Shown: one piece after another, positions 840 to 42,125 of the stretch
Numbering within the stretch: the first letter of the stretch is position 1
How the letters are laid out: each line of letters starts with the position of its first letter
Notes under the pieces: model-generated
What the model saw: the letters and a program-made list of their open reading frames with translations, nothing else
Databases searched by the model: none
What the model was told of the DNA's origin: nothing
Source of the DNA: a virus
Lineage: Duplodnaviria; Heunggongvirae; Uroviricota; Caudoviricetes
Strand: one strand, 5' to 3'
Virus record (IMG/VR): IMGVR_UViG_2740892273_000003
Length of the DNA stretch: 44,348 bases
Program-made: the position numbers and the translations under genes

Positions 840-1421
840 TTACCCTATAGGTGCTACTGGCCATTCAATATCCGGTGCAGTTGATGTATCAACACGGTTC
901 AGCAACACCCGATACTTTTTCCAAGCTTCCAGCAACAAGGTTTCTTTCTCCGTTGCGATCTCCAGATCCACAGCATCCTGAAGCGGCGCTATATGCTCAC
1001 TGGCTACCTGCATCAGGCTGTTTTTTGTTTCTTCCGCCTCCCGGATCCGGAACAGTTTTTCTGCTTCCGTATCCTTCACCCAGGCTGTGCCGTTCCACTT
1101 CTGAAACTCCCCTTCCGGCGACAACCAAGTAACATTTTCCGGTAACGGACCGAGTTCAGAAATAAATAACGCGTCGCCGGAAGCCACGTCATAAACCGTT
1201 TTACCCCGATGATCTTCAACGAGATGCCACGATGACTCATCACTGTTGAAAACAGCCACGAAACCAGCCGGAATATCTGGCGGTGCAATATCGGTACTGT
1301 TTGCAGGCAGACCTGTATGAGGCGGAATATATGCATCACCTTCACCAATAAATTCATTAGTTCCGGCCAGCAGGTTATAAATTTTTATGGTCCGTGCTTG
1401 TTCACTCATTCTGAATGCCAT
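840..1421 (-). CDS. tfa: Tail fiber assembly protein (lambda Tfa-like, 193 aa)
   Basis: ORF length and position immediately downstream of the side tail fiber gene; start overlaps stf stop. Confidence 0.8.
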
Positions 1422-10756: not shown

Positions 10757-13314
10757 CGTCCACCTCCGGAGAACAGGCCACCATCACGCATCTGTGTCTG
10801 AATTTCATCACGGGCACCCTTGCGGGCCATGTCATACACGGCCTTCATCATCTGTGGACCTGGCAGACCATTCGTACCGTCGTTCTGAATCACCACGTGA
10901 TTGTTCTGATTAAAATTAATGCCTTCAGCCCGCCGCATCTGCGCCGGACTTCCGGCACCGCCCACATAACCACCTTCCGCATAGCCGCGCATCAGCCGGT
11001 AGAGATTCCCCACGCCAATCCGGCTGGTTGCCTCCTTCGTGAAGACAAATTCACCACGGTGAACAATCCCCGCTGGCTCATATTTGCCGCCGGTTCCCGT
11101 AAATCCCCCGGTTGCAAAATGGAATTTCACCGCAGCGGCCTGAATGGCTGTACCACCTGACGCGGATGCGCCGCCACCAACAGCCCCGCCAATGGCGCTG
11201 CCGATACTCCCGACAATCCCCACCATTGCCTGCTTAAGCAGAATTTCTGTCATCATGGACAGCACGGAGCGGGTGAAGCTGCGCCAGTTCTGTTCACTGC
11301 CGGTCAGCATCGCCGCCATATTCTGTGCAATACCATCAAAGGTCTGCGTGGCTGCACTTTTAACCTGTGACATACTGTCCGTGGCGCTCTCTTCCCACTC
11401 ACTCCAGCCGGACTTCAGGCCTGCCATCCAGCTCCCGCGAAGCTGGTCTTCAGCCGCCCAGGTCTTTTTCTGCTCTGACATGACGTTATTCAGCGCCAGA
11501 GGATTATCGCCATACTGTTCCTTCAGGCGCTGTTCCGTGGCTTCCCGCGCTGCCTGCCGGTCAGTCAGCCCCCGGTTTTTCGCATCAATGGCTGCCCGTT
11601 TTGCCCGTTGCTGCTGTGCGAATTTATCCGCCTGCTGCGCCAGCGCATTCAGGTGCTCCTGATACGTAACCTTGTCACCAAGTGCAGCCAGCTGGCGTTT
11701 GTACTCCAGCGTCTCGTCTTTATGCGCCAGCAGGGATTTCTCCTGTGCGGACAGCTGGCGACGTTGTGCCGCCTCCTCCAGTACCGCGAACTGACTTTCT
11801 GCCTTCCACAAATCCCGGCGCTGCTGGCTGATTTTCTCATTCGCTCCGGCATGCTTCTCCAGCGTCCGGAGTTCTGCCTGAAGCGTCAGCAGGGCCGCAT
11901 GAGCACTGTCTTCCTGACGATCGCCCGCATACACCTTCACGCCGGACTGTTTCGGCTTTTTCAGCGTCGCTTCATAATCCTTTTTCGCCGCCGCCATCAG
12001 CGTGTTGTAATCTGCCTGCAGGATTTTTCCGTCTTTCAGTGCCTTGTTCAGTTCTTCCTGACGGGCGGTATATTTCTCCAGCGGCGTCTGCAGCCGTTCG
12101 TAAGCCTTCTGCGCCTCTTCGGTATATTTCAGCCGTGACGCTTCGGTATCGCTCTGCTGCTGCGCATTTTTGTCCTGTTGACGCTGTTGATCTACCCTCT
12201 TTTGGGCTGCATCCCGCTCCAGGCGTTTTTTTTCACGATCATCCCAGTAACGCGCCCGTGCTTCATCGTTAACGAAATAATCATCCTTGCGCAGATTCCA
12301 GATGTCGTCTGCTTTCTTAAACGCAGCCTCTGCCTTAATCAGCATCTCCTGCGCGGTATCAGGACGACCAATATCCAGCACCGCATCCCACATGGATTTG
12401 AATGCACGTGCAGTCCTGTCTGCCCAGGTCTCCAGCGTGCCCATGTTCTCTTTCAGGCGGCGGGTCTGGTCATCAAACCCTTTCGTTGCGGCCTCGTTCG
12501 CCGCCTGCAATGCCCCGGCTTCATCGCCGGAACGCTGCAACTGAGCAACATACGCAATCTGCTCCGCCGTCACGTTATGGAACTGGCGTGCCATCGCCGT
12601 CAGCCCCGACGTCGGGTCTGTGGTCAGCTTCCCGAAGGCTTCAGCGACCTTGTCCACCTCCACGCCGGATGCATAGGAGAAACGCGCCACACTCTGGCTG
12701 ATGGACGCAATCTGAGCCTCACCGCTTACCCCCGCCTTAACCAGTGCGCTGAGTGACTCGCTGGTCTGGTTAAACGTCAGCCCTGCCGCCTGCCCGGCTC
12801 TGGACAGGACCAGCATACGATCTGCCGTCAGTCCCGCCTGATTACCGGAAAGGACCAGCGTTTTGTTGAAATCGGACAGGGTTGAGTTGCCCTGATACCA
12901 GGCATACGCCAGCGCACCGGTCGCCACCGCCAGCGAGGTGGCCCCCACCATCGGCAGGGTGATCGCGCCGGCAAGCCCCCTGAACATGGGGATCATCCCG
13001 CCGAAGGAGTCCTTAACCTGACCACCCTGTTGCAGCAGGATCAGCCAGGGATTCTGCCCCCCTGCAAGCTGCGTGGCCACGTCGGTGAACTGTGCAGGCA
13101 GCATACGCATGGCGGCTTTATACTGCCCGACGGAAATCCCCGCTTTCTGTGCAGCCAGCGCCTGTCGGCTCAGCGACTGTTCAACGACTGCCGCTGTTTT
13201 TTTCGCATCACTTTCCGTACCGGAAAAATGACGCCTGACTCTGGCCATCTGCTCGTCAAATCTGGCCGCATCCAGACTCAAATCAACGACCAGATCGCCT
13301 ACCGGTTCAGCCAT
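10753..13314 (-). CDS. H: Tail tape measure protein H (853 aa)
   Basis: Length identical to lambda H; coiled-coil rich middle; Gly-rich C-terminus; follows G/GT. Confidence 0.85.
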   Translation of the reverse strand: MAEPVGDLVVDLSLDAARFDEQMARVRRHFSGTESDAKKTAAVVEQSLSRQALAAQKAGISVGQYKAAMRMLPAQFTDVATQLAGGQNPWLILLQQGGQVKDSFGGMIPMFRGLAGAITLPMVGATSLAVATGALAYAWYQGNSTLSDFNKTLVLSGNQAGLTADRMLVLSRAGQAAGLTFNQTSESLSALVKAGVSGEAQIASISQSVARFSYASGVEVDKVAEAFGKLTTDPTSGLTAMARQFHNVTAEQIAYVAQLQRSGDEAGALQAANEAATKGFDDQTRRLKENMGTLETWADRTARAFKSMWDAVLDIGRPDTAQEMLIKAEAAFKKADDIWNLRKDDYFVNDEARARYWDDREKKRLERDAAQKRVDQQRQQDKNAQQQSDTEASRLKYTEEAQKAYERLQTPLEKYTARQEELNKALKDGKILQADYNTLMAAAKKDYEATLKKPKQSGVKVYAGDRQEDSAHAALLTLQAELRTLEKHAGANEKISQQRRDLWKAESQFAVLEEAAQRRQLSAQEKSLLAHKDETLEYKRQLAALGDKVTYQEHLNALAQQADKFAQQQRAKRAAIDAKNRGLTDRQAAREATEQRLKEQYGDNPLALNNVMSEQKKTWAAEDQLRGSWMAGLKSGWSEWEESATDSMSQVKSAATQTFDGIAQNMAAMLTGSEQNWRSFTRSVLSMMTEILLKQAMVGIVGSIGSAIGGAVGGGASASGGTAIQAAAVKFHFATGGFTGTGGKYEPAGIVHRGEFVFTKEATSRIGVGNLYRLMRGYAEGGYVGGAGSPAQMRRAEGINFNQNNHVVIQNDGTNGLPGPQMMKAVYDMARKGARDEIQTQMRDGGLFSGGGR

Positions 13315-19438: not shown

Positions 19439-23119
<3,681 letters not shown>

Positions 23120-28204: not shown

Positions 28205-28516
28205 ATGTTTAACGTGATAACCCACCCTGCAGCACTGGATGAACTGCTTGAACTACCAGATGATTTGCGAGGTCGCATGACCAGATTAATTGAGCGACTG
28301 GAGAAGGAAGGCAACAAACTGAAGATGCCCCATAGCCGTGTAATAGGTGGAGGGCTTTTTGAACTACGAGTAGGGGATAAAAACATCGCAAGAACGCTGT
28401 ACGCCTACGCGACTGGTAACGAAATTTATCTATTGCATGCATTTGTAAAAAAGACACAGAAAACACCGGTGAAGGCTATTGAAATCGCCAGAACTCGCCT
28501 GAAGGAGATGAACTGA
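28205..28516 (+). CDS. Type II toxin, RelE/HigB superfamily (N15 gp49-like, 103 aa)
   Basis: Small basic protein resembling gp49-like/HigB toxins; GGAGG RBS 7 nt upstream; encoded upstream of an HTH protein with ATGA start/stop overlap; opposite strand to flanking phage genes. Confidence 0.65.
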   Translation: MFNVITHPAALDELLELPDDLRGRMTRLIERLEKEGNKLKMPHSRVIGGGLFELRVGDKNIARTLYAYATGNEIYLLHAFVKKTQKTPVKAIEIARTRLKEMN

Positions 28517-28803
28517 TGAAAGCGAAAGGCATCCCGTTTAACGAAGTAAAAGAAAAACTTCTCAACACTCCAGAAGCCATCAAAGGATATGAAGAGGCCG
28601 ATAAAGAGCTGGAGATGGTCGAAATGTTATACGAAATGAGGGAAAGAGCAGGTTTAACGAAGTCAGCTCTGGCTGAACGAATGGGATTGCGCCCGTCAGC
28701 TATCAGCCGCCTGGAAAGCAATCCTTTAGGGGCAAGCATGAAAACTTTATCAAAATATGCCCAAGCATGCGGTGCAACGATTAATATTAATGCCGTCTAT
28801 TGA
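28516..28803 (+). CDS. HTH (XRE-family) antitoxin, HigA-like (95 aa)
   Basis: Helix-turn-helix segment LTKSALAERMGLRPSAISRLE; translationally coupled to the toxin gene. Confidence 0.65.
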   Translation: MKAKGIPFNEVKEKLLNTPEAIKGYEEADKELEMVEMLYEMRERAGLTKSALAERMGLRPSAISRLESNPLGASMKTLSKYAQACGATININAVY

Positions 28804-28846
28804 TTAGACCCTTTTCGCTACCCCGTCCAGAAGGGCGGGGTGTGTA

Positions 28847-29065
28847 TCAATGATGCAAACACTCAACAGCAATAACTTGTTGGCAATTCTGAGCAATCTC
28901 CCGCGACATACTAACAAGTCGTGAAATCTCGCCAAGATGCAAGCTGGCTTCTGGAGAAGCCAGAGCAACGCTAACCAGATCCAAAACGGCGTCGATGTCT
29001 TTTAGGTTTGATCCGAGTTCTTCAAGAGTTGATACAGGTGCTTCAGTCATTGAATCTAATACCAT
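28847..29065 (-). CDS. Small protein (67-72 aa) downstream of a LexA box; candidate SOS-inducible antirepressor
   Basis: ORF with alternative ATGs at ~29065 and ~29050; a LexA-box-like sequence lies ~25 bp upstream. Confidence 0.45.
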   Translation of the reverse strand: MVLDSMTEAPVSTLEELGSNLKDIDAVLDLVSVALASPEASLHLGEISRLVSMSREIAQNCQQVIAVECLHH

Positions 29066-29087
29066 TTAATTAAAAAAGGTTATTTGA

Positions 29088-29107
29088 TACTGTATAAAAT
29101 TACAGGG
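29088..29107 (-). promoter_or_regulatory. LexA box (SOS operator) overlapping a candidate promoter
   Basis: TACTGTATAAAATTACAGGG fits CTGT-N8-ACAG with an AT-rich centre; on the minus strand it overlaps TTGAGT-17-TACAGT promoter-like hexamers. Confidence 0.6.
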
Positions 29108-29134
29108 TAAAACTCAAATTTTATAGCCAACTTT

Positions 29135-29289
29135 CAATGGATTAACTGGTTAAATATCTTTGTAGTCCGATACTTATGTTCCCTTCCTACGCCTCGCCCA
29201 ACCACTTTCAAAAGCCCATCACCACCATCAGAAAAGCTCTTTTCGCTCCGTTTTCGTATCATTTCAAAAAGCAATGCCTTTTTGTCCAT
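29135..29289 (-). CDS. Unannotated small ORF (about 50 aa) with a strong Shine-Dalgarno sequence
   Basis: ATG at ~29289 preceded by GGAGGG at 5-nt spacing; translation MDKKALLFEMIRKRSEKSFSDGGDGLLKVVGRGVGREHKYRTTKIFNQLIH; below the track's 60-aa cutoff. Confidence 0.3.
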
Positions 29290-29298
29290 TTATCCCTC

Positions 29299-29312
29299 CG
29301 TGACCAGTCACA
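29299..29312. repeat. Palindrome CCGTGACCAGTCAC (GTGAC-N2-GTCAC), copy 1 of 2
   Basis: Shares the 14-bp core GTGACTGGTCACGG (reverse complement) with the palindrome at 40633-40652. Confidence 0.5.
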
Positions 29313-29634
29313 CTTTGAGCGCAAGTTTCAGCCTCGTGGTTGTAAGGTGGCATGAGCCTTCACCATCAAAAATGCATTCTGAAACAGGCATTTTTTGACC
29401 ACATCGCGGACAAGTAGTAGATAGCTGTTTCTGCAACTCCTTATAGTTTTTCCTGATCAGCAGTCCGATGACTTCGTTCTCTGAATATGGAACTCGCCCT
29501 GGTCTACGCAATACACAAATTTCCCCCAACATACGTAACTCGTCAGGTTCCAGAATCCAGTCACGTCTTGATGTTCCTTCCTTCTTCAACCGTTCCCTGC
29601 GTCTTCTTTGCCGTTCTGCCGGTGTCAGCGCCAT
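29308..29634 (-). CDS. Hypothetical protein (108 aa) with basic N-terminus and CxxC motif
   Basis: ORF; Arg-rich N-terminus MALTPAERQRRRRERLKKEG and CPRCG motif. Confidence 0.5.
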   Translation of the reverse strand: MALTPAERQRRRRERLKKEGTSRRDWILEPDELRMLGEICVLRRPGRVPYSENEVIGLLIRKNYKELQKQLSTTCPRCGQKMPVSECIFDGEGSCHLTTTRLKLALKV

Positions 29635-33918: not shown

Positions 33919-34515
33919 ATGAAAACACGAGGCGAACGACTGAAAGCACGCCGTTTAGAGATGAAGCTGACGTTGCGAGAAGTTGCTGAGGCTGTCGATA
34001 TCTCTATTGCAGGCGTCCAAAACTTAGAACGTGGCGACGTAATGCCGTCACTGGAGATAGGTATTGCCCTGGCTAAATGCTTACGCAAGCCAGTGCATTG
34101 GGTGCTGTATGGGACAGAATATGACCCTGATCGCATTCCTGTTATTGGCACAACTGAAAGTGGACCTGATGAAGAGTGGAAGCCAGGACAGGTTCCAAAT
34201 ACTGAGCGATTCCTGCCATTCATCAGCCAGCGCAATACTGTTTATGCGTTAACTATCAGCAATCTGGCGCAGGGAAACTATCAGCCTGGCGATTTTCTCC
34301 TGGTCGATTCTGCGCTGGAACTGGTCCCCGGCGAGGATGTTCTGGTTCGTGATACTGCAGGAAATATCACCATCCAGCGCCTGGCCCGTTTTGATGATGA
34401 AAATTACTATCTGGACGGAACAAATTCACAACGCGCTATCTTCAGGAAAAGCGATCTTGAATTTGTTCACCAAATAGTCGGAACGATCAAATCATTCATG
34501 GTTGAGGGTAGATGA
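33919..34515 (+). CDS. cB: Prophage repressor, cB/cI-type (HTH_XRE N-terminal domain plus LexA/S24-like C-terminal domain that appears to lack the catalytic Lys)
   Basis: N-terminal HTH LREVAEAVDISIAGVQNLERG; the C-terminal domain aligns by eye to the cI/LexA peptidase fold (PGDFLLVD) but has QRLAR where the catalytic Lys is expected. Confidence 0.75.
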   Translation: MKTRGERLKARRLEMKLTLREVAEAVDISIAGVQNLERGDVMPSLEIGIALAKCLRKPVHWVLYGTEYDPDRIPVIGTTESGPDEEWKPGQVPNTERFLPFISQRNTVYALTISNLAQGNYQPGDFLLVDSALELVPGEDVLVRDTAGNITIQRLARFDDENYYLDGTNSQRAIFRKSDLEFVHQIVGTIKSFMVEGR

Positions 34516-39273: not shown

Positions 39274-39669
39274 ATGGCTGTTCAATCATACAAATACGAA
39301 TCCCCTTTGGATAAGGGATACATTCGTATCAAGTTAAGTCGTTCTCAACATAAGGCTATTTTTAAGGTAAGGAAAATTCGCATATTGGATGCGTATGCGT
39401 ATTACTACAACGGTGAAAATGTTGTTGTTGAACACTTTCTTGCACGATGGTTTGTAGCTCTGATTTTTGTCCCTCTCCTGTTAATTGGTACTTTTGTGGA
39501 TGGTTTTCCTAGTACATGGCGGGAGATAAAGAAAGGCCTATTCCCGCGTAAGTACGGCAGATTTTCGCAAGATAGCTGGCGAGTTATACCTGGTAAACAT
39601 TCTGTGGATGAGCAGCCGATTGTTGATTACTGGTTGAAGCGTATGGCTGATGCTAAAAAAGTTGATTGA
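39274..39669 (+). CDS. Hypothetical membrane protein (about 131 aa), AT-rich
   Basis: One central TM segment WFVALIFVPLLLIGTFV; GC content visibly lower than flanking genes. Confidence 0.45.
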   Translation: MAVQSYKYESPLDKGYIRIKLSRSQHKAIFKVRKIRILDAYAYYYNGENVVVEHFLARWFVALIFVPLLLIGTFVDGFPSTWREIKKGLFPRKYGRFSQDSWRVIPGKHSVDEQPIVDYWLKRMADAKKVD

Positions 39670-39758
39670 ATAGTGATGACTGTTCAAGTTAAACCGTTCT
39701 CGGCATATTTTATTTAATGGAATAACATATTATTAATCAAATAGGTTAAGTTAATATT

Positions 39759-40571
39759 ATGCGTAACAAAAAAACAACAGCTTTATTACTCTCTATCTTG
39801 TTATTATCTGGATGCACTTATCAATATGATAATAAGGCATCAACGGACGTTGAGTATAAATTCGAAAAAGAAAAAAGAGTACCTATCAACTCTGTTGGTG
39901 ATTTTAGCAGCAAAATACTCACAGGTAAGGAATTTAATAGAATTATTGCATCAAAGATAGATGATGGTTCATGGCGTGGATATGTCGTTCACTCATTAAC
40001 ATACGCGCCATACAACAACGTTTTAACATCTCAAGGTTTGTCTATCCCTAGAAGTATCACATACTCAGGAACATATCTTAACCGTGATTTTGTTGAGAAT
40101 AGCGGTAGTGATAGCGTGATAACATCTCGAGATATGTCTGGATGGTATGGTTTTCATGTCGATTCCTCTGAAATAACAAAGCATGGAAGCTATGTTGGTG
40201 CTAATGCTTTTGGAATATCTGCTGATGTAGAAGTGTTAAATACTTTAGGTGCCGAAATTATCTTTGGTAGTACACAAATAAATGAAGGGAACCCTGAAAC
40301 AATATGGGCAGATATTGATATAAAAGGACAAATACCAAAAGATGTTAATGTAAAAGACCTTAGAATTGAATATTTAGCAAAGATAAATGGGTTAAGCAGT
40401 AATCATATTGATATAACATCACCTACTATTTTTAACCCGTCAGATATGAGCCATAAAACTCAGGTTTTTATGGGTGAGTTATTAGCCGCGCGCCTAATAA
40501 ATATTAAAACGGGAGAAATTTATCCAGTACAGCTAGAGTGGGTGTTCCGTTCGCGTGAGGCTTTCTTATAA
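39759..40571 (+). CDS. Lipoprotein (270 aa), AT-rich moron-like gene
   Basis: Signal peptide with lipobox LLLSGC; markedly AT-rich coding sequence; followed by a perfect hairpin GAACAAT-aac-ATTGTTC. Confidence 0.55.
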   Translation: MRNKKTTALLLSILLLSGCTYQYDNKASTDVEYKFEKEKRVPINSVGDFSSKILTGKEFNRIIASKIDDGSWRGYVVHSLTYAPYNNVLTSQGLSIPRSITYSGTYLNRDFVENSGSDSVITSRDMSGWYGFHVDSSEITKHGSYVGANAFGISADVEVLNTLGAEIIFGSTQINEGNPETIWADIDIKGQIPKDVNVKDLRIEYLAKINGLSSNHIDITSPTIFNPSDMSHKTQVFMGELLAARLINIKTGEIYPVQLEWVFRSREAFL

Positions 40572-40699: not shown

Positions 40700-40786
40700 A
40701 GTCACCTCGCTGCGGTAAATCCCGCAGTCGGGACTTCGCAATCCTGGCAAAACGAAGCGCACAACACGCGCCAGCGTGTTTTTTTG
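40700..40786 (+). ncRNA. Candidate small regulatory RNA (P1 c4 / N15 CA-like) preceding icd-ant
   Basis: Promoter-like TTGACG (~40673) with a weak -10; hairpin CTGCGG-taaatc-CCGCAG; intrinsic terminator ACACGC-gcca-GCGTGT then TTTTTTT at ~40764-40786; lies directly upstream of an icd-like gene. Confidence 0.4.
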
Positions 40787-40951
40787 TGTGTATAGACCTG
40801 CGCATATCCGAATTATGGTGGCTCAGGTGGGGCTGACTTCGGTCGGGCCGGTTTCTTCGTTTACCGGTATTGCGAACCCCGCCTGGGCTACCACCAATAA
40901 AGAGATTCGCAACTCTGGTGGTAGCACGACCAATAAAACGGAGTGCATACC

Positions 40952-41116
40952 ATGTTCAAATTCAAATTTGCGGCAGTCGTTCGCACAGACAAAAAGTCCC
41001 ACATTCATCATCTTTCCACTATCGCGTCATCTGAACGGGAAGCTCGTCGCCAGTTCGCCAGCCGGTTTGTCCTGGTATTGTCTGCCCGTATTCCGGTGCG
41101 CGAGGTGGCTGCATGA
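40952..41116 (+). CDS. icd: Icd-like cell division inhibitor (54 aa)
   Basis: MFKFKFAAVVRTDKK...EREARRQFASRFVLVLSARIPVREV fits the pattern recalled for P1-type Icd-like proteins; GGAG RBS. Confidence 0.55.
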   Translation: MFKFKFAAVVRTDKKSHIHHLSTIASSEREARRQFASRFVLVLSARIPVREVAA

Positions 41117-41346
41117 ATCAGGTAAAAATGAACACTGTTGGCCTGCTGGAATCGTTGGATGAACGTCTGGCTCAGGTCTATGCGCTCGTATCATCAGCCC
41201 ATCGGACAGTCTCCAGTTGTGAGGCGTCGATTTACCTCTCAGAGGCTGGAAAACTTCTGCAGATTGCGTGTGAGTTAACGCATGAAGCACAGGGATATTC
41301 TGCGTCTCTCTCGTCGCACTTGCTGCGCGATAAGGAGGCTGAATGA
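41113..41346 (+). CDS. Hypothetical protein (77 aa) in the icd-ant operon
   Basis: ATGA overlaps with both the upstream and downstream genes. Confidence 0.5.
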   Translation: MNQVKMNTVGLLESLDERLAQVYALVSSAHRTVSSCEASIYLSEAGKLLQIACELTHEAQGYSASLSSHLLRDKEAE

Positions 41347-42125
41347 GCGCGTTAGCAGTCTTTTCCTTTCAGGAAGAGCATCAGGTTCGTGTAGTGATGA
41401 TTAACGGTGAGCCGTGGTTTGTGGCTAAGGATGTATGTGATGCTTTAAGACTCGTTAATTCCCGGAAGGCGCTAATGTCTCTGGATGAGGATGAAAAGGG
41501 TGTAACTTTAAGTTACACCCCTGGCGGAGAGCAAAAGCTAAATATTATTTCAGAGTCAGGTCTATACACCCTGATCCTCCGCTGCCGTGACGCGGTGAAG
41601 CAAGGCACAACAGCTTGGCGGTTTCGCAAATGGGTAACGAACGAAGTCTTGCCCTCTATTCGCAAAAATGGAGAGTACGTTTACATCGAGCCTGAGCCAA
41701 TGCGAGCAGCGGAGCCGTTGAACTGGAGGCAGAAAGAGTATCTGCGAGGGCTGATTAACGATATAGCACAAAGTTTTCAGTACCGAAATGCCTGGATTAG
41801 CGGTGTATGGTTAGCTTTGCGTCGGGCGTGTCGTAATCCATCCCCGAACCCCATAACGGTTGATGATTTGCCAGCAATTACGGCAGAACTGCGCCGGATT
41901 TTGACGGCTGCTGAGTCGGCATTGGGGAACATGCGCACGTATGAACGAGAGTTGTTGCGTGATGTTGTTCGTGGGGGTAGGCGGAGTATGTCGTGTGGTG
42001 ATTTACCCATCACCGATATTAACTCTGATCTGGAAAAGGCGTTACCCGCGCATTTTGAACTGGCAGTTCAAAAACTTGAGCAGTTATCCGCGCAGCTAAA
42101 GCCAGCAGAAATCACCAATAAATAG
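41343..42125 (+). CDS. ant: Antirepressor with Bro-N domain (260 aa)
   Basis: N-terminal FSFQEEHQVRVVMINGEPWFVAKDVCDALRL...SESGLYTLILR...KWVTNEVLPSIRKNG matches the Bro-N domain pattern. Confidence 0.7.
   Translation: MSALAVFSFQEEHQVRVVMINGEPWFVAKDVCDALRLVNSRKALMSLDEDEKGVTLSYTPGGEQKLNIISESGLYTLILRCRDAVKQGTTAWRFRKWVTNEVLPSIRKNGEYVYIEPEPMRAAEPLNWRQKEYLRGLINDIAQSFQYRNAWISGVWLALRRACRNPSPNPITVDDLPAITAELRRILTAAESALGNMRTYERELLRDVVRGGRRSMSCGDLPITDINSDLEKALPAHFELAVQKLEQLSAQLKPAEITNK

What the first reader, a model, noticed from the sequence alone, without database searches (positions are those of the whole stretch)
28847..29130. LexA box upstream of a small ORF: candidate SOS-inducible antirepressor
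TACTGTATAAAATTACAGGG is a good CTGT-N8-ACAG SOS box and overlaps promoter-like hexamers driving a 67-72-aa ORF. N15-type phages are reported to induce through a LexA-controlled small antirepressor rather than repressor autocleavage, which fits the non-cleavable-looking repressor here.
Basis: partly seen in the sequence, partly recalled or inferred. Interest (0 to 1): 0.6.

Follow-up and report, generated by a model that had tools for sequence, protein, structure and literature searches.

The report
SOS-controlled antirepressor gene of N15-like prophage
This is the counterpart, in an N15-like linear plasmid prophage of E. coli, of the known N15 antC gene: a small protein kept silent by the host LexA repressor and made after DNA damage to switch off the phage repressor. 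It is a correct but ordinary finding.

Summary
TACTGTATAAAATTACAGGG lies at 29088-29107. It is the only strong LexA-type site in the window: 19.5 bits against 10.6 for the next best, and within the 13.0-28.6 bit range of 18 E. coli SOS boxes. It overlaps the -10 hexamer of a weak but conserved promoter on the minus strand (TTGAGT-17-TACAGT). That promoter precedes a 67-aa ORF (28847-29050), or 72 aa if translation starts at 29065.

The window is an N15-like phage (Ravinvirus). The ORF is 57% identical to an unannotated ORF at the same map position in N15, between gene 47 and the gene 48/49 toxin-antitoxin pair. That N15 ORF carries one of only two strong LexA boxes in the N15 genome; the other precedes the umuD-like gene. 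It is therefore N15 antC, the published LexA-controlled antirepressor.

Box, promoter spacing and ORF are conserved in all 27 related loci examined. The window's repressor is 78% identical to N15 CB and lacks the Ala-Gly site and the Ser and Lys residues needed for self-cleavage.

Binding of the protein to CB and induction by DNA damage are inferred from orthology, not shown here. A paralogue (41113-41346) sits in the C4-RNA-controlled immA operon. Verdict: already known; low interest.

The parts
29088..29107 (.). LexA (SOS) box TACTGTATAAAATTACAGGG; palindromic core CTGT-N8-ACAG at 29090-29105
   Evidence: 19.5 bits, the best site in the window by 9 bits; 14 of 20 columns invariant in 9 diverged relatives, against 18 of 80 in the rest of the upstream region.
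29089..29094 (-). Putative -10 hexamer TACAGT, lying inside the LexA box
   Evidence: Read from the sequence; invariant in all relatives. The assignment as a promoter element is an inference.
29112..29117 (-). Putative -35 hexamer TTGAGT, 17 nt upstream of the -10
   Evidence: TTG is invariant and the spacing is conserved. The pair scores 8 of 12, below the threshold of the scan.
28847..29050 (-). antC-like CDS, 67 aa plus stop, from the universally conserved ATG at 29050. An in-frame upstream ATG at 29065 would give 72 aa.
   Evidence: homologues; SPEASLH motif; substitutions fall 3rd > 1st > 2nd codon position; the ATG at 29065 is CTG or CGG in phiKO2 and KpLi5; phrog_6301 at 7e-35, phrog_10889 'anti-repressor' at 1.4e-6; two-helix hairpin, pLDDT 87.5.
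28820..28841 (.). G+C-rich hairpin between the convergent antC and the antitoxin gene (28516-28803, +); a possible bidirectional terminator
   Evidence: hairpin CCCCGCCC/GGACGGGG; whole-region z-score only -1.2. One search found no canonical terminator because there is no T-run. Weak evidence.
33919..34515 (+). CB-type prophage repressor (198 aa), the inferred target of the small protein
   Evidence: 78% identical to N15 CB. HTH_3 plus a sub-threshold Peptidase_S24 match. LexA Ala84-Gly85 aligns with Pro-Gly, Ser119 with Ala, Lys156 with Gln.

Best explanation
The region is the antC module of an N15-like linear plasmid prophage. In the lysogen, host LexA dimer binds the box at 29088-29107. The box covers the -10 hexamer and spacer of the antC promoter on the minus strand, so LexA blocks transcription. 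DNA damage activates RecA, LexA cleaves itself, and the promoter fires. A 67-aa (possibly 72-aa) two-helix hairpin protein is then made. It binds the CB repressor, which cannot cleave itself, and removes it from its operators. Cro, Q, replication and late genes are then expressed and the prophage enters lytic growth.

Shown here: the box, its quality and conservation, its overlap with the conserved promoter-like hexamers, the coding nature and homology of the ORF, its synteny with N15, and the loss of self-cleavage residues in CB.

Inferred from orthology with N15 AntC and from the literature: LexA binding, damage inducibility, and AntC-CB binding.
For: (1) Taxonomic setting. The region is 92-93% identical in DNA to Ravinvirus phages YDC107_1 and PhiR46_1. 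telN, gp46, gp48 and gp49 are 77-92% identical to their N15 counterparts.

(2) Homologue in N15. tblastn finds it at N15 39604-39807, in the unannotated gap between gene 47 and gene 48 (57% identity, E 2e-17). The N15 sequence there carries CCCTGTGTTTATATACAGTA 37 nt upstream of the conserved ATG.

(3) Identification as antC. A scan of the whole N15 genome finds only two strong LexA sites: 21658, before the umuD-like gene 26, and 39562, before this ORF. The next best site scores 10.4 bits. The latter is therefore the LexA-controlled antC.

(4) Conservation. The box or a one-mismatch version (phiKO2) is present at the same place in all 27 related loci examined. 14 of 20 box columns are invariant, against 18 of 80 in the rest of the upstream region.

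(5) Site quality. 19.5 bits; verified E. coli boxes span 13.0-28.6; next best in the window 10.6; 4 of 200 shuffles reach it.

(6) Protein coding. The substitution pattern by codon position fits a coding gene. The family is conserved with an invariant SPEASLH motif. It matches phrog_10889 'anti-repressor'.

(7) Target repressor. CB is 78% identical to N15 CB and lacks the Ala-Gly site, the Ser and the Lys. N15 CB was shown to be non-proteolytic (PMC10432266).

(8) Literature. AntC of N15 acts against the prophage repressor and is LexA-controlled.
Against: - The primary paper (Mardanov & Ravin 2007) could not be read here. Equating the N15 ORF with antC therefore rests on exclusion, secondary citations and my recollection.
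- The promoter hexamers are weak (8 of 12) and were not called by the scan.
- No clear Shine-Dalgarno sequence precedes either ATG in this window.
- No canonical terminator follows the ORF.
- AntC is only 57% identical to N15 AntC. It is only 78% identical to YDC107_1 AntC although the two CB proteins are 99% identical, so target specificity is not established.
- No database names any family member; all are 'hypothetical protein'.
Confidence: 0.87

Rival explanations
1. The LexA box and promoter are functional, but the small protein does something other than inactivate CB. For example it could be an SOS-induced modulator of host functions (cell division, RecA), or it could act on another phage's repressor.
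For: No binding data exist for this protein. AntC diverges (78% identity) while CB is 99% identical between this window and YDC107_1. Its paralogue sits next to an icd-like gene in immA. The fold is a generic helical hairpin with no informative structural neighbours.
Against: It is orthologous and syntenic with the N15 gene reported to act on CB. It matches a PHROG family annotated 'anti-repressor'. No DinI or other Pfam domain is found. It co-occurs with a repressor that cannot self-cleave and therefore needs an external inducer.
Confidence: 0.07
2. The palindrome is a chance or promoter-related AT-rich sequence that LexA does not bind, and the ORF is expressed only by read-through from the upstream early operon (gp46-gp47).
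For: Four of 200 random 44-kb sequences contain a site this good. The outer positions of the promoter-distal half-site deviate from consensus (ACAGGG rather than ACAGTA). The promoter is weak by consensus. The upstream genes are on the same strand.
Against: The site lies exactly where N15 and all relatives have theirs, and its CTGT/ACAG cores are kept while flanking intergenic sequence diverges. Its score falls within the range of verified boxes. The published N15 antC is LexA-controlled.
Confidence: 0.03
3. The main product is an RNA. A LexA-controlled transcript runs into the convergent RelE/ParE-type toxin-antitoxin pair (28205-28803) and acts as antisense; the ORF is incidental.
For: antC and the antitoxin gene converge with only 43 nt between them, and no canonical terminator lies there.
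Against: The substitution pattern and the invariant amino-acid motif show selection on the protein. The ORF is intact in every relative. A G+C-rich hairpin separates the two genes. Antisense read-through could still occur as a side effect.
Confidence: 0.03

Closest known systems
AntC of coliphage N15 (Mardanov & Ravin 2007, J Bacteriol 189:6333)
   Same: Same genus-level phage type. Same map position, between gene 47 and the convergent gene 48/49 pair. Homologous small protein (57% identity). LexA box at the same distance from the start codon, overlapping the same TACAGT hexamer. The same kind of non-cleavable CB repressor (78% identity).
   Different: The protein is substantially diverged, chiefly in the C-terminal third. 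The box differs in spacer sequence (AATTTTAT against GTTTATAT). The neighbouring gp47 carries an internal deletion here. Nothing has been tested experimentally for this variant.
N15 gp31 in immA, presumably AntA, the antirepressor of Ravin et al. 1999
   Same: Same small-protein family. The window's copy (41113-41346) and AntC both hit phrog_6301 (1.5e-36 and 7e-35) and phrog_10889 'anti-repressor'. They share an S-x-E-A-S/T-L/I-H/Y loop motif.
   Different: It has a different control input: it lies in an operon behind an isrK-like element and a C4 antisense RNA, not behind a LexA box. It is only about 25% identical to AntC. The profile comparison is borderline on its own (E 1.6e-4, probability 50%).
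Tum of coliphage 186, and GfoA/GftA of the Salmonella Gifsy prophages
   Same: Same logic: a LexA-repressed gene outside the immunity region encodes a small protein that binds and inactivates a repressor which does not self-cleave (PMC3121763).
   Different: No detectable sequence relationship was found here. Tum is 146 aa with a DinI-like half, whereas AntC has no Pfam domain. The Gifsy antirepressors lie in a dinI-irsA operon.
smORF antirepressors of Vibrio telomere phages (Silpe et al. 2023, PMC10432266)
   Same: Small proteins of linear plasmid-like phages that inactivate the cI-type repressor without proteolysis.
   Different: Those are switched on by a phage-encoded transcription factor independently of SOS, and their repressors are autoproteolytic. 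Here the input is LexA and the repressor is non-proteolytic.

Membership tests
N15 AntC-type LexA-controlled antirepressor module | Small protein homologous to N15 AntC | tested here: met
   tblastn gives 57% identity over 68 aa, E 2e-17, to N15 39604-39807; see alignment A2. Caveat: that ORF is equated with antC by exclusion, not by reading the primary paper.
N15 AntC-type LexA-controlled antirepressor module | Same genomic position: downstream of gene 46/47 and convergent with the gene 48/49 pair | tested here: met
   (annotated relatives); gp46, gp47, gp48 and gp49 homologues flank the ORF in the window.
N15 AntC-type LexA-controlled antirepressor module | LexA box overlapping the gene's own promoter | tested here: met
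   The box at 29088-29107 contains the TACAGT -10 hexamer; TTGAGT lies 17 nt upstream. The arrangement is conserved in relatives including N15. The promoter itself is inferred.
N15 AntC-type LexA-controlled antirepressor module | Cognate CB-type repressor that cannot self-cleave | tested here: met
   78% identical to N15 CB. Ala-Gly, Ser119 and Lys156 equivalents are absent. The S24 match is below the Pfam cut-off. N15 CB is non-proteolytic in experiment (PMC10432266).
N15 AntC-type LexA-controlled antirepressor module | The protein binds CB and relieves repression | not testable with these tools
   Needs pull-down or two-hybrid assays and reporter assays.
N15 AntC-type LexA-controlled antirepressor module | Transcription induced by DNA damage in a LexA/RecA-dependent way | not testable with these tools
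   Needs qRT-PCR or reporter assays in lexA(Ind-), recA and lexA-null backgrounds.
E. coli-type LexA (SOS) box | CTGT-N8-ACAG palindrome with an A+T-rich spacer, scoring within the range of verified sites | tested here: met
   19.5 bits against 13.0-28.6 for 18 known boxes. The heterology index computed with this matrix is 7.8-8.7, against 0.3-9.3 for the training set.
E. coli-type LexA (SOS) box | Bound by LexA | not testable with these tools
   Needs EMSA or footprinting.
Self-cleaving S24 repressors (lambda CI / LexA type), considered for the window's CB | Ala-Gly cleavage site plus Ser/Lys catalytic dyad | tested here: not met
   Alignment to E. coli LexA: Pro-Gly in place of Ala-Gly, Ala for Ser119, Gln for Lys156. 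N15 CB has Ile and Gln at the two catalytic positions.
186 Tum-type antirepressor | DinI-like C-terminal half and a length of about 146 aa | tested here: not met
   AntC is 67-72 aa with no Pfam family at E <= 0.01.
P22/P1 Ant-type antirepressors (Bro-N / ANT domains) | Bro-N or ANT domain | tested here: not met
   No Pfam hit for AntC. The Bro-N protein of this phage is a different gene, 41343-42125.

The most novel reading that the evidence does not exclude
The phage carries two paralogous helical-hairpin antirepressors, AntC behind a LexA box and an AntA-like protein behind a C4 antisense RNA. Two unrelated signals would then converge on one non-cleavable repressor. AntC diverges fast (78% identity) against a nearly fixed CB (99%). 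That could mean AntC has additional or shifting targets, such as cross-talk with co-resident prophages. The paralogy may already be described in papers I could not read.
Probability: 0.12. Interest if true: 0.4.

Novelty: already known. Interest (0 to 1): 0.18.

Why it matters
The finding confirms that this plasmid prophage uses the published N15 strategy for sensing DNA damage, so it adds no new principle.

Its practical value is for annotation. The gene is missing from the N15 RefSeq record. It is labelled 'hypothetical protein' (or mislabelled 'gp47') in every related record and protein cluster seen here, although about 200 Klebsiella, Escherichia and Enterobacter plasmid records carry it. 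Naming it, and noting the conserved LexA box, would let tools that predict prophage inducibility classify these common phage-plasmids correctly.

Tried and rejected
- Primary paper. Mardanov & Ravin 2007 is not held by PMC id or by DOI. Searches for open text giving antC coordinates found only secondary mentions.
- Promoter and terminator scan of 28700-29400. It returned nothing at its thresholds, so the promoter rests on conservation rather than consensus strength.
- Pfam on AntC. No family.
- Foldseek of the AF2 model against PDB and BFVD. No match with E <= 0.001, only generic helical hairpins, so the fold gives no functional clue.
- Exhaustive HMMER search of 1.8 billion representatives. 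Only 4 clusters, so the family is narrow. The source of the most distant member (P0014) was not found in the phage or plasmid collections.
- Genome-contig scan. Only 2 loci.
- Second CTGT-N8-ACAG at 11247. Considered and rejected as a LexA site: G+C-rich spacer, inside a tail gene, low score.
- Box regulating a + strand gene. Rejected: there is no ORF or conserved feature downstream on that strand, only the antisense of gp47.

Full report
**What is there.** The 20-mer TACTGTATAAAATTACAGGG lies at 29088-29107. On the minus strand the sequence reads TTGAGT (29117-29112), a 17-nt spacer, TACAGT (29094-29089), then about 37 nt, then ATGACTGAAG.... The LexA box covers the putative -10 hexamer and most of the spacer. 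The ORF runs on the minus strand from 29065 (72 aa) or 29050 (67 aa) to the stop at 28847-28849. It converges on a RelE/ParE-type toxin gene (Pfam Gp49) and an HTH antitoxin gene at 28205-28803 on the + strand. A G+C-rich hairpin at 28820-28841 lies between them.

**Is the box more than chance?** CTGT-N8-ACAG occurs twice in the window, against 0.5 expected. The other copy (11247) has a G+C-rich spacer and sits inside a tail gene.

I built a symmetrised weight matrix from the 18 E. coli LexA boxes tabulated in PMC3009722.
- The site scores 19.5 bits; the training sites span 13.0-28.6.
- The next best 20-mer in the window scores 10.6.
- Four of 200 Markov-shuffled sequences of the same size reach 19.5.

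On its own this is suggestive (about 2%). The decisive evidence is comparative.

**What the element is.** The surrounding 1.5 kb is 92-93% identical to Escherichia phages YDC107_1 (genus Ravinvirus) and PhiR46_1. Identical sequence occurs in E. coli and E. fergusonii plasmid records. The window encodes:
- a protelomerase, 77% identical to N15 TelN;
- a 1331-aa RepA-like protein;
- a Q antiterminator;
- a CB-type repressor.

It is therefore an N15-like linear plasmid prophage, in the opposite orientation to the N15 record.

**Homology of the ORF.** tblastn finds relatives only in N15-like phages of Escherichia, Klebsiella and Enterobacter. In N15 the match (57% identity, E 2e-17) falls at 39604-39807, in an unannotated gap between gene 47 and gene 48. 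In phiKO2 it is 'Gp47'. The N15 sequence there has CCCTGTGTTTATATACAGTA at the same distance from the conserved ATG.

I could not open the primary paper on N15 AntC, so I scanned the whole N15 genome with the matrix. It has only two strong LexA sites:
- 21658, directly before the umuD-like gene 26;
- 39562, before this ORF.

Everything else scores 10.4 bits or less. Secondary sources state that N15 induction starts with antC, that its product acts against the prophage repressor, and that it is LexA-controlled (PMC4488713, PMC3121763, PMC11652158). The ORF at 39.6 kb must therefore be antC, and the window's ORF is its ortholog.

**Conservation.** All 27 related loci examined carry CTGT-N8-ACAG at the same place, or ATGT-N8-ACAG in phiKO2. 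These comprise 18 IMG/VR contigs, seven phage records, and two genome contigs. In an alignment of nine diverged upstream regions, 14 of the 20 box columns are invariant, against 18 of 80 elsewhere. The invariant columns include the TTG of the -35, TATACAGTA, and the second ATG.

The first ATG (29065) is CTG or CGG in phiKO2 and KpLi5. The 67-aa form is therefore the only universally possible one. In E. coli-type phages the 72-75-aa form cannot be excluded, since gene callers disagree.

Pairwise substitutions fall 3rd > 1st > 2nd codon position in all 15 comparisons, and the protein has an invariant SPEASLH motif. So it is a real coding gene.

**The protein.**
- No Pfam family matches.
- It matches phrog_6301 ('unknown function', 7e-35) and, more weakly, phrog_10889 ('anti-repressor', 1.4e-6). 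N15 AntC matches the latter at 1.4e-8.
- The family is narrow: 4 clusters at 50% identity among 1.8 billion representatives.
- Every database name is 'hypothetical protein'.
- AlphaFold2 with 29 sequences gives a confident two-helix hairpin (pLDDT 87.5; helices 4-30 and 39-66), with SPEASLH in the connecting loop.
- Foldseek finds nothing significant in PDB or BFVD.

**The repressor.** CB (33919-34515) is 78% identical to N15 CB. It has an HTH_3 domain and a sub-threshold Peptidase_S24 match (21.3 bits against a 23.3 cut-off). I aligned it to E. coli LexA taken from MG1655. In that alignment Ala84-Gly85 corresponds to Pro-Gly, Ser119 to Ala and Lys156 to Gln. N15 CB has Ile and Gln at the two catalytic positions. 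N15's repressor has been shown not to be cleaved on SOS induction (PMC10432266).

**Mechanism.** LexA occludes the antC promoter in the lysogen. RecA-stimulated LexA cleavage derepresses it. The hairpin protein binds CB and lifts repression of cro, Q and replication. The first half is supported here by anatomy and conservation. The second half is inferred from orthology. As Lemire et al. note for this class of system, induction is in principle reversible, because the repressor is not destroyed.

**Weak points.**
- The promoter hexamers match only 8 of 12 consensus positions and are not called by the scan.
- No clear Shine-Dalgarno sequence is present in this window. Klebsiella relatives have GGTAGG 7 nt upstream of the ATG.
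- No canonical terminator follows the ORF.
- AntC is only 78% identical to that of YDC107_1 while CB is 99% identical. Specificity is therefore untested.

**Beyond the finding.** A tblastn with the most distant family member hit a second place in the window: ORF 41113-41346 (+), 77 aa.
- It is 63% identical to N15 gp31.
- It belongs to the same phrog_6301 (1.5e-36) and to phrog_10889 'anti-repressor' (1.3e-18).
- It aligns with the AntC profile at hhalign E 1.6e-4 and shares the S-x-E-A-S/T loop motif.
- It lies between an icd-like ORF and a Bro-N 'Ant' protein.
- It is downstream of an isrK-like element and a C4 antisense RNA.

This is the immA operon of N15 (icd-antA-antB). The phage thus carries two paralogous small antirepressor-type proteins under different controls. 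I cannot tell whether the literature already notes the paralogy.

**Verdict.** This is the known N15 AntC system in a congeneric phage, so novelty is 'already known' and interest is low. The useful by-product is annotation: the gene is absent from the N15 RefSeq record and unnamed everywhere else.

Noticed in passing
window 41113-41346 (+), with 40943-41116 and 41343-42125: A 77-aa paralogue of the AntC family (phrog_6301 at 1.5e-36; phrog_10889 'anti-repressor' at 1.3e-18; 63% identical to N15 gp31). It sits between an icd-like ORF and a Bro-N Ant-type protein, which is the immA operon. The phage therefore has two related small antirepressor-type proteins under different controls.
   Followed up: partly
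window 40709-40784 (+) and 40811-40898 (+): Rfam hits to isrK (52.8 bits) and to C4 antisense RNA (82.3 bits) lie directly upstream of the immA genes. This fits the P1/N15-type RNA control of the secondary immunity operon.
   Followed up: no
window 29134-29289 (-): The gp47-like ORF just upstream of antC is only 51 aa, against 73 aa in N15 and 80 aa in YDC107_1. It matches phrog_13995 in two stretches, which indicates an in-frame internal deletion of about 25 aa. Plasmid records at >=99.9% identity share it.
   Followed up: partly
window 33919-34515 (+) vs L001:10974-11570; window 28847-29050 vs L001:6647-6850: CB is 99% identical between this phage and YDC107_1, but AntC is only 78% identical. 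Either AntC evolves faster or the genome is mosaic at this locus. No covariation between the two proteins is evident.
   Followed up: partly
L022:4783-4802 (phiKO2), L024:4799, L025:4801: Klebsiella phiKO2-type phages have a second good LexA-like box, CACTGT(A/G)AAAATAAACAGTG (18.6-21 bits), at the annotated start of the DNA methyltransferase gene, downstream of the putative late promoter. The window has no counterpart.
   Followed up: no
N15 (L029) 21658-21677; window as a whole: N15's strongest LexA box precedes its umuD-like gene 26. The window has no homologue of N15 genes 22-28 (the umuD-like gene and sopA/sopB among them) at tblastn E <= 1e-3. Its left end is either truncated or differently equipped.
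   Followed up: partly
window 880-1078 (-): A strong Rfam hit to IS009 (218 bits, full length) lies inside or overlapping the 193-aa ORF at 840-1421.
   Followed up: no
L031 (NZ_BMZO01000013.1, Limoniibacter endophyticus, 52-kb contig): A contig filed under an unrelated genus carries an AntC and LexA-box region whose box 20-mer, upstream sequence and AntC protein sequence are the same as in Klebsiella phage KpLi5. This may be assembly contamination or an unexpected host.
   Followed up: no
phiKO2-type phage and plasmid records: tblastn with the distant family member P0014 finds two or more places per Klebsiella record but one per E. coli record at that threshold. The extra place is probably the immA paralogue, as in this window.
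   Followed up: no
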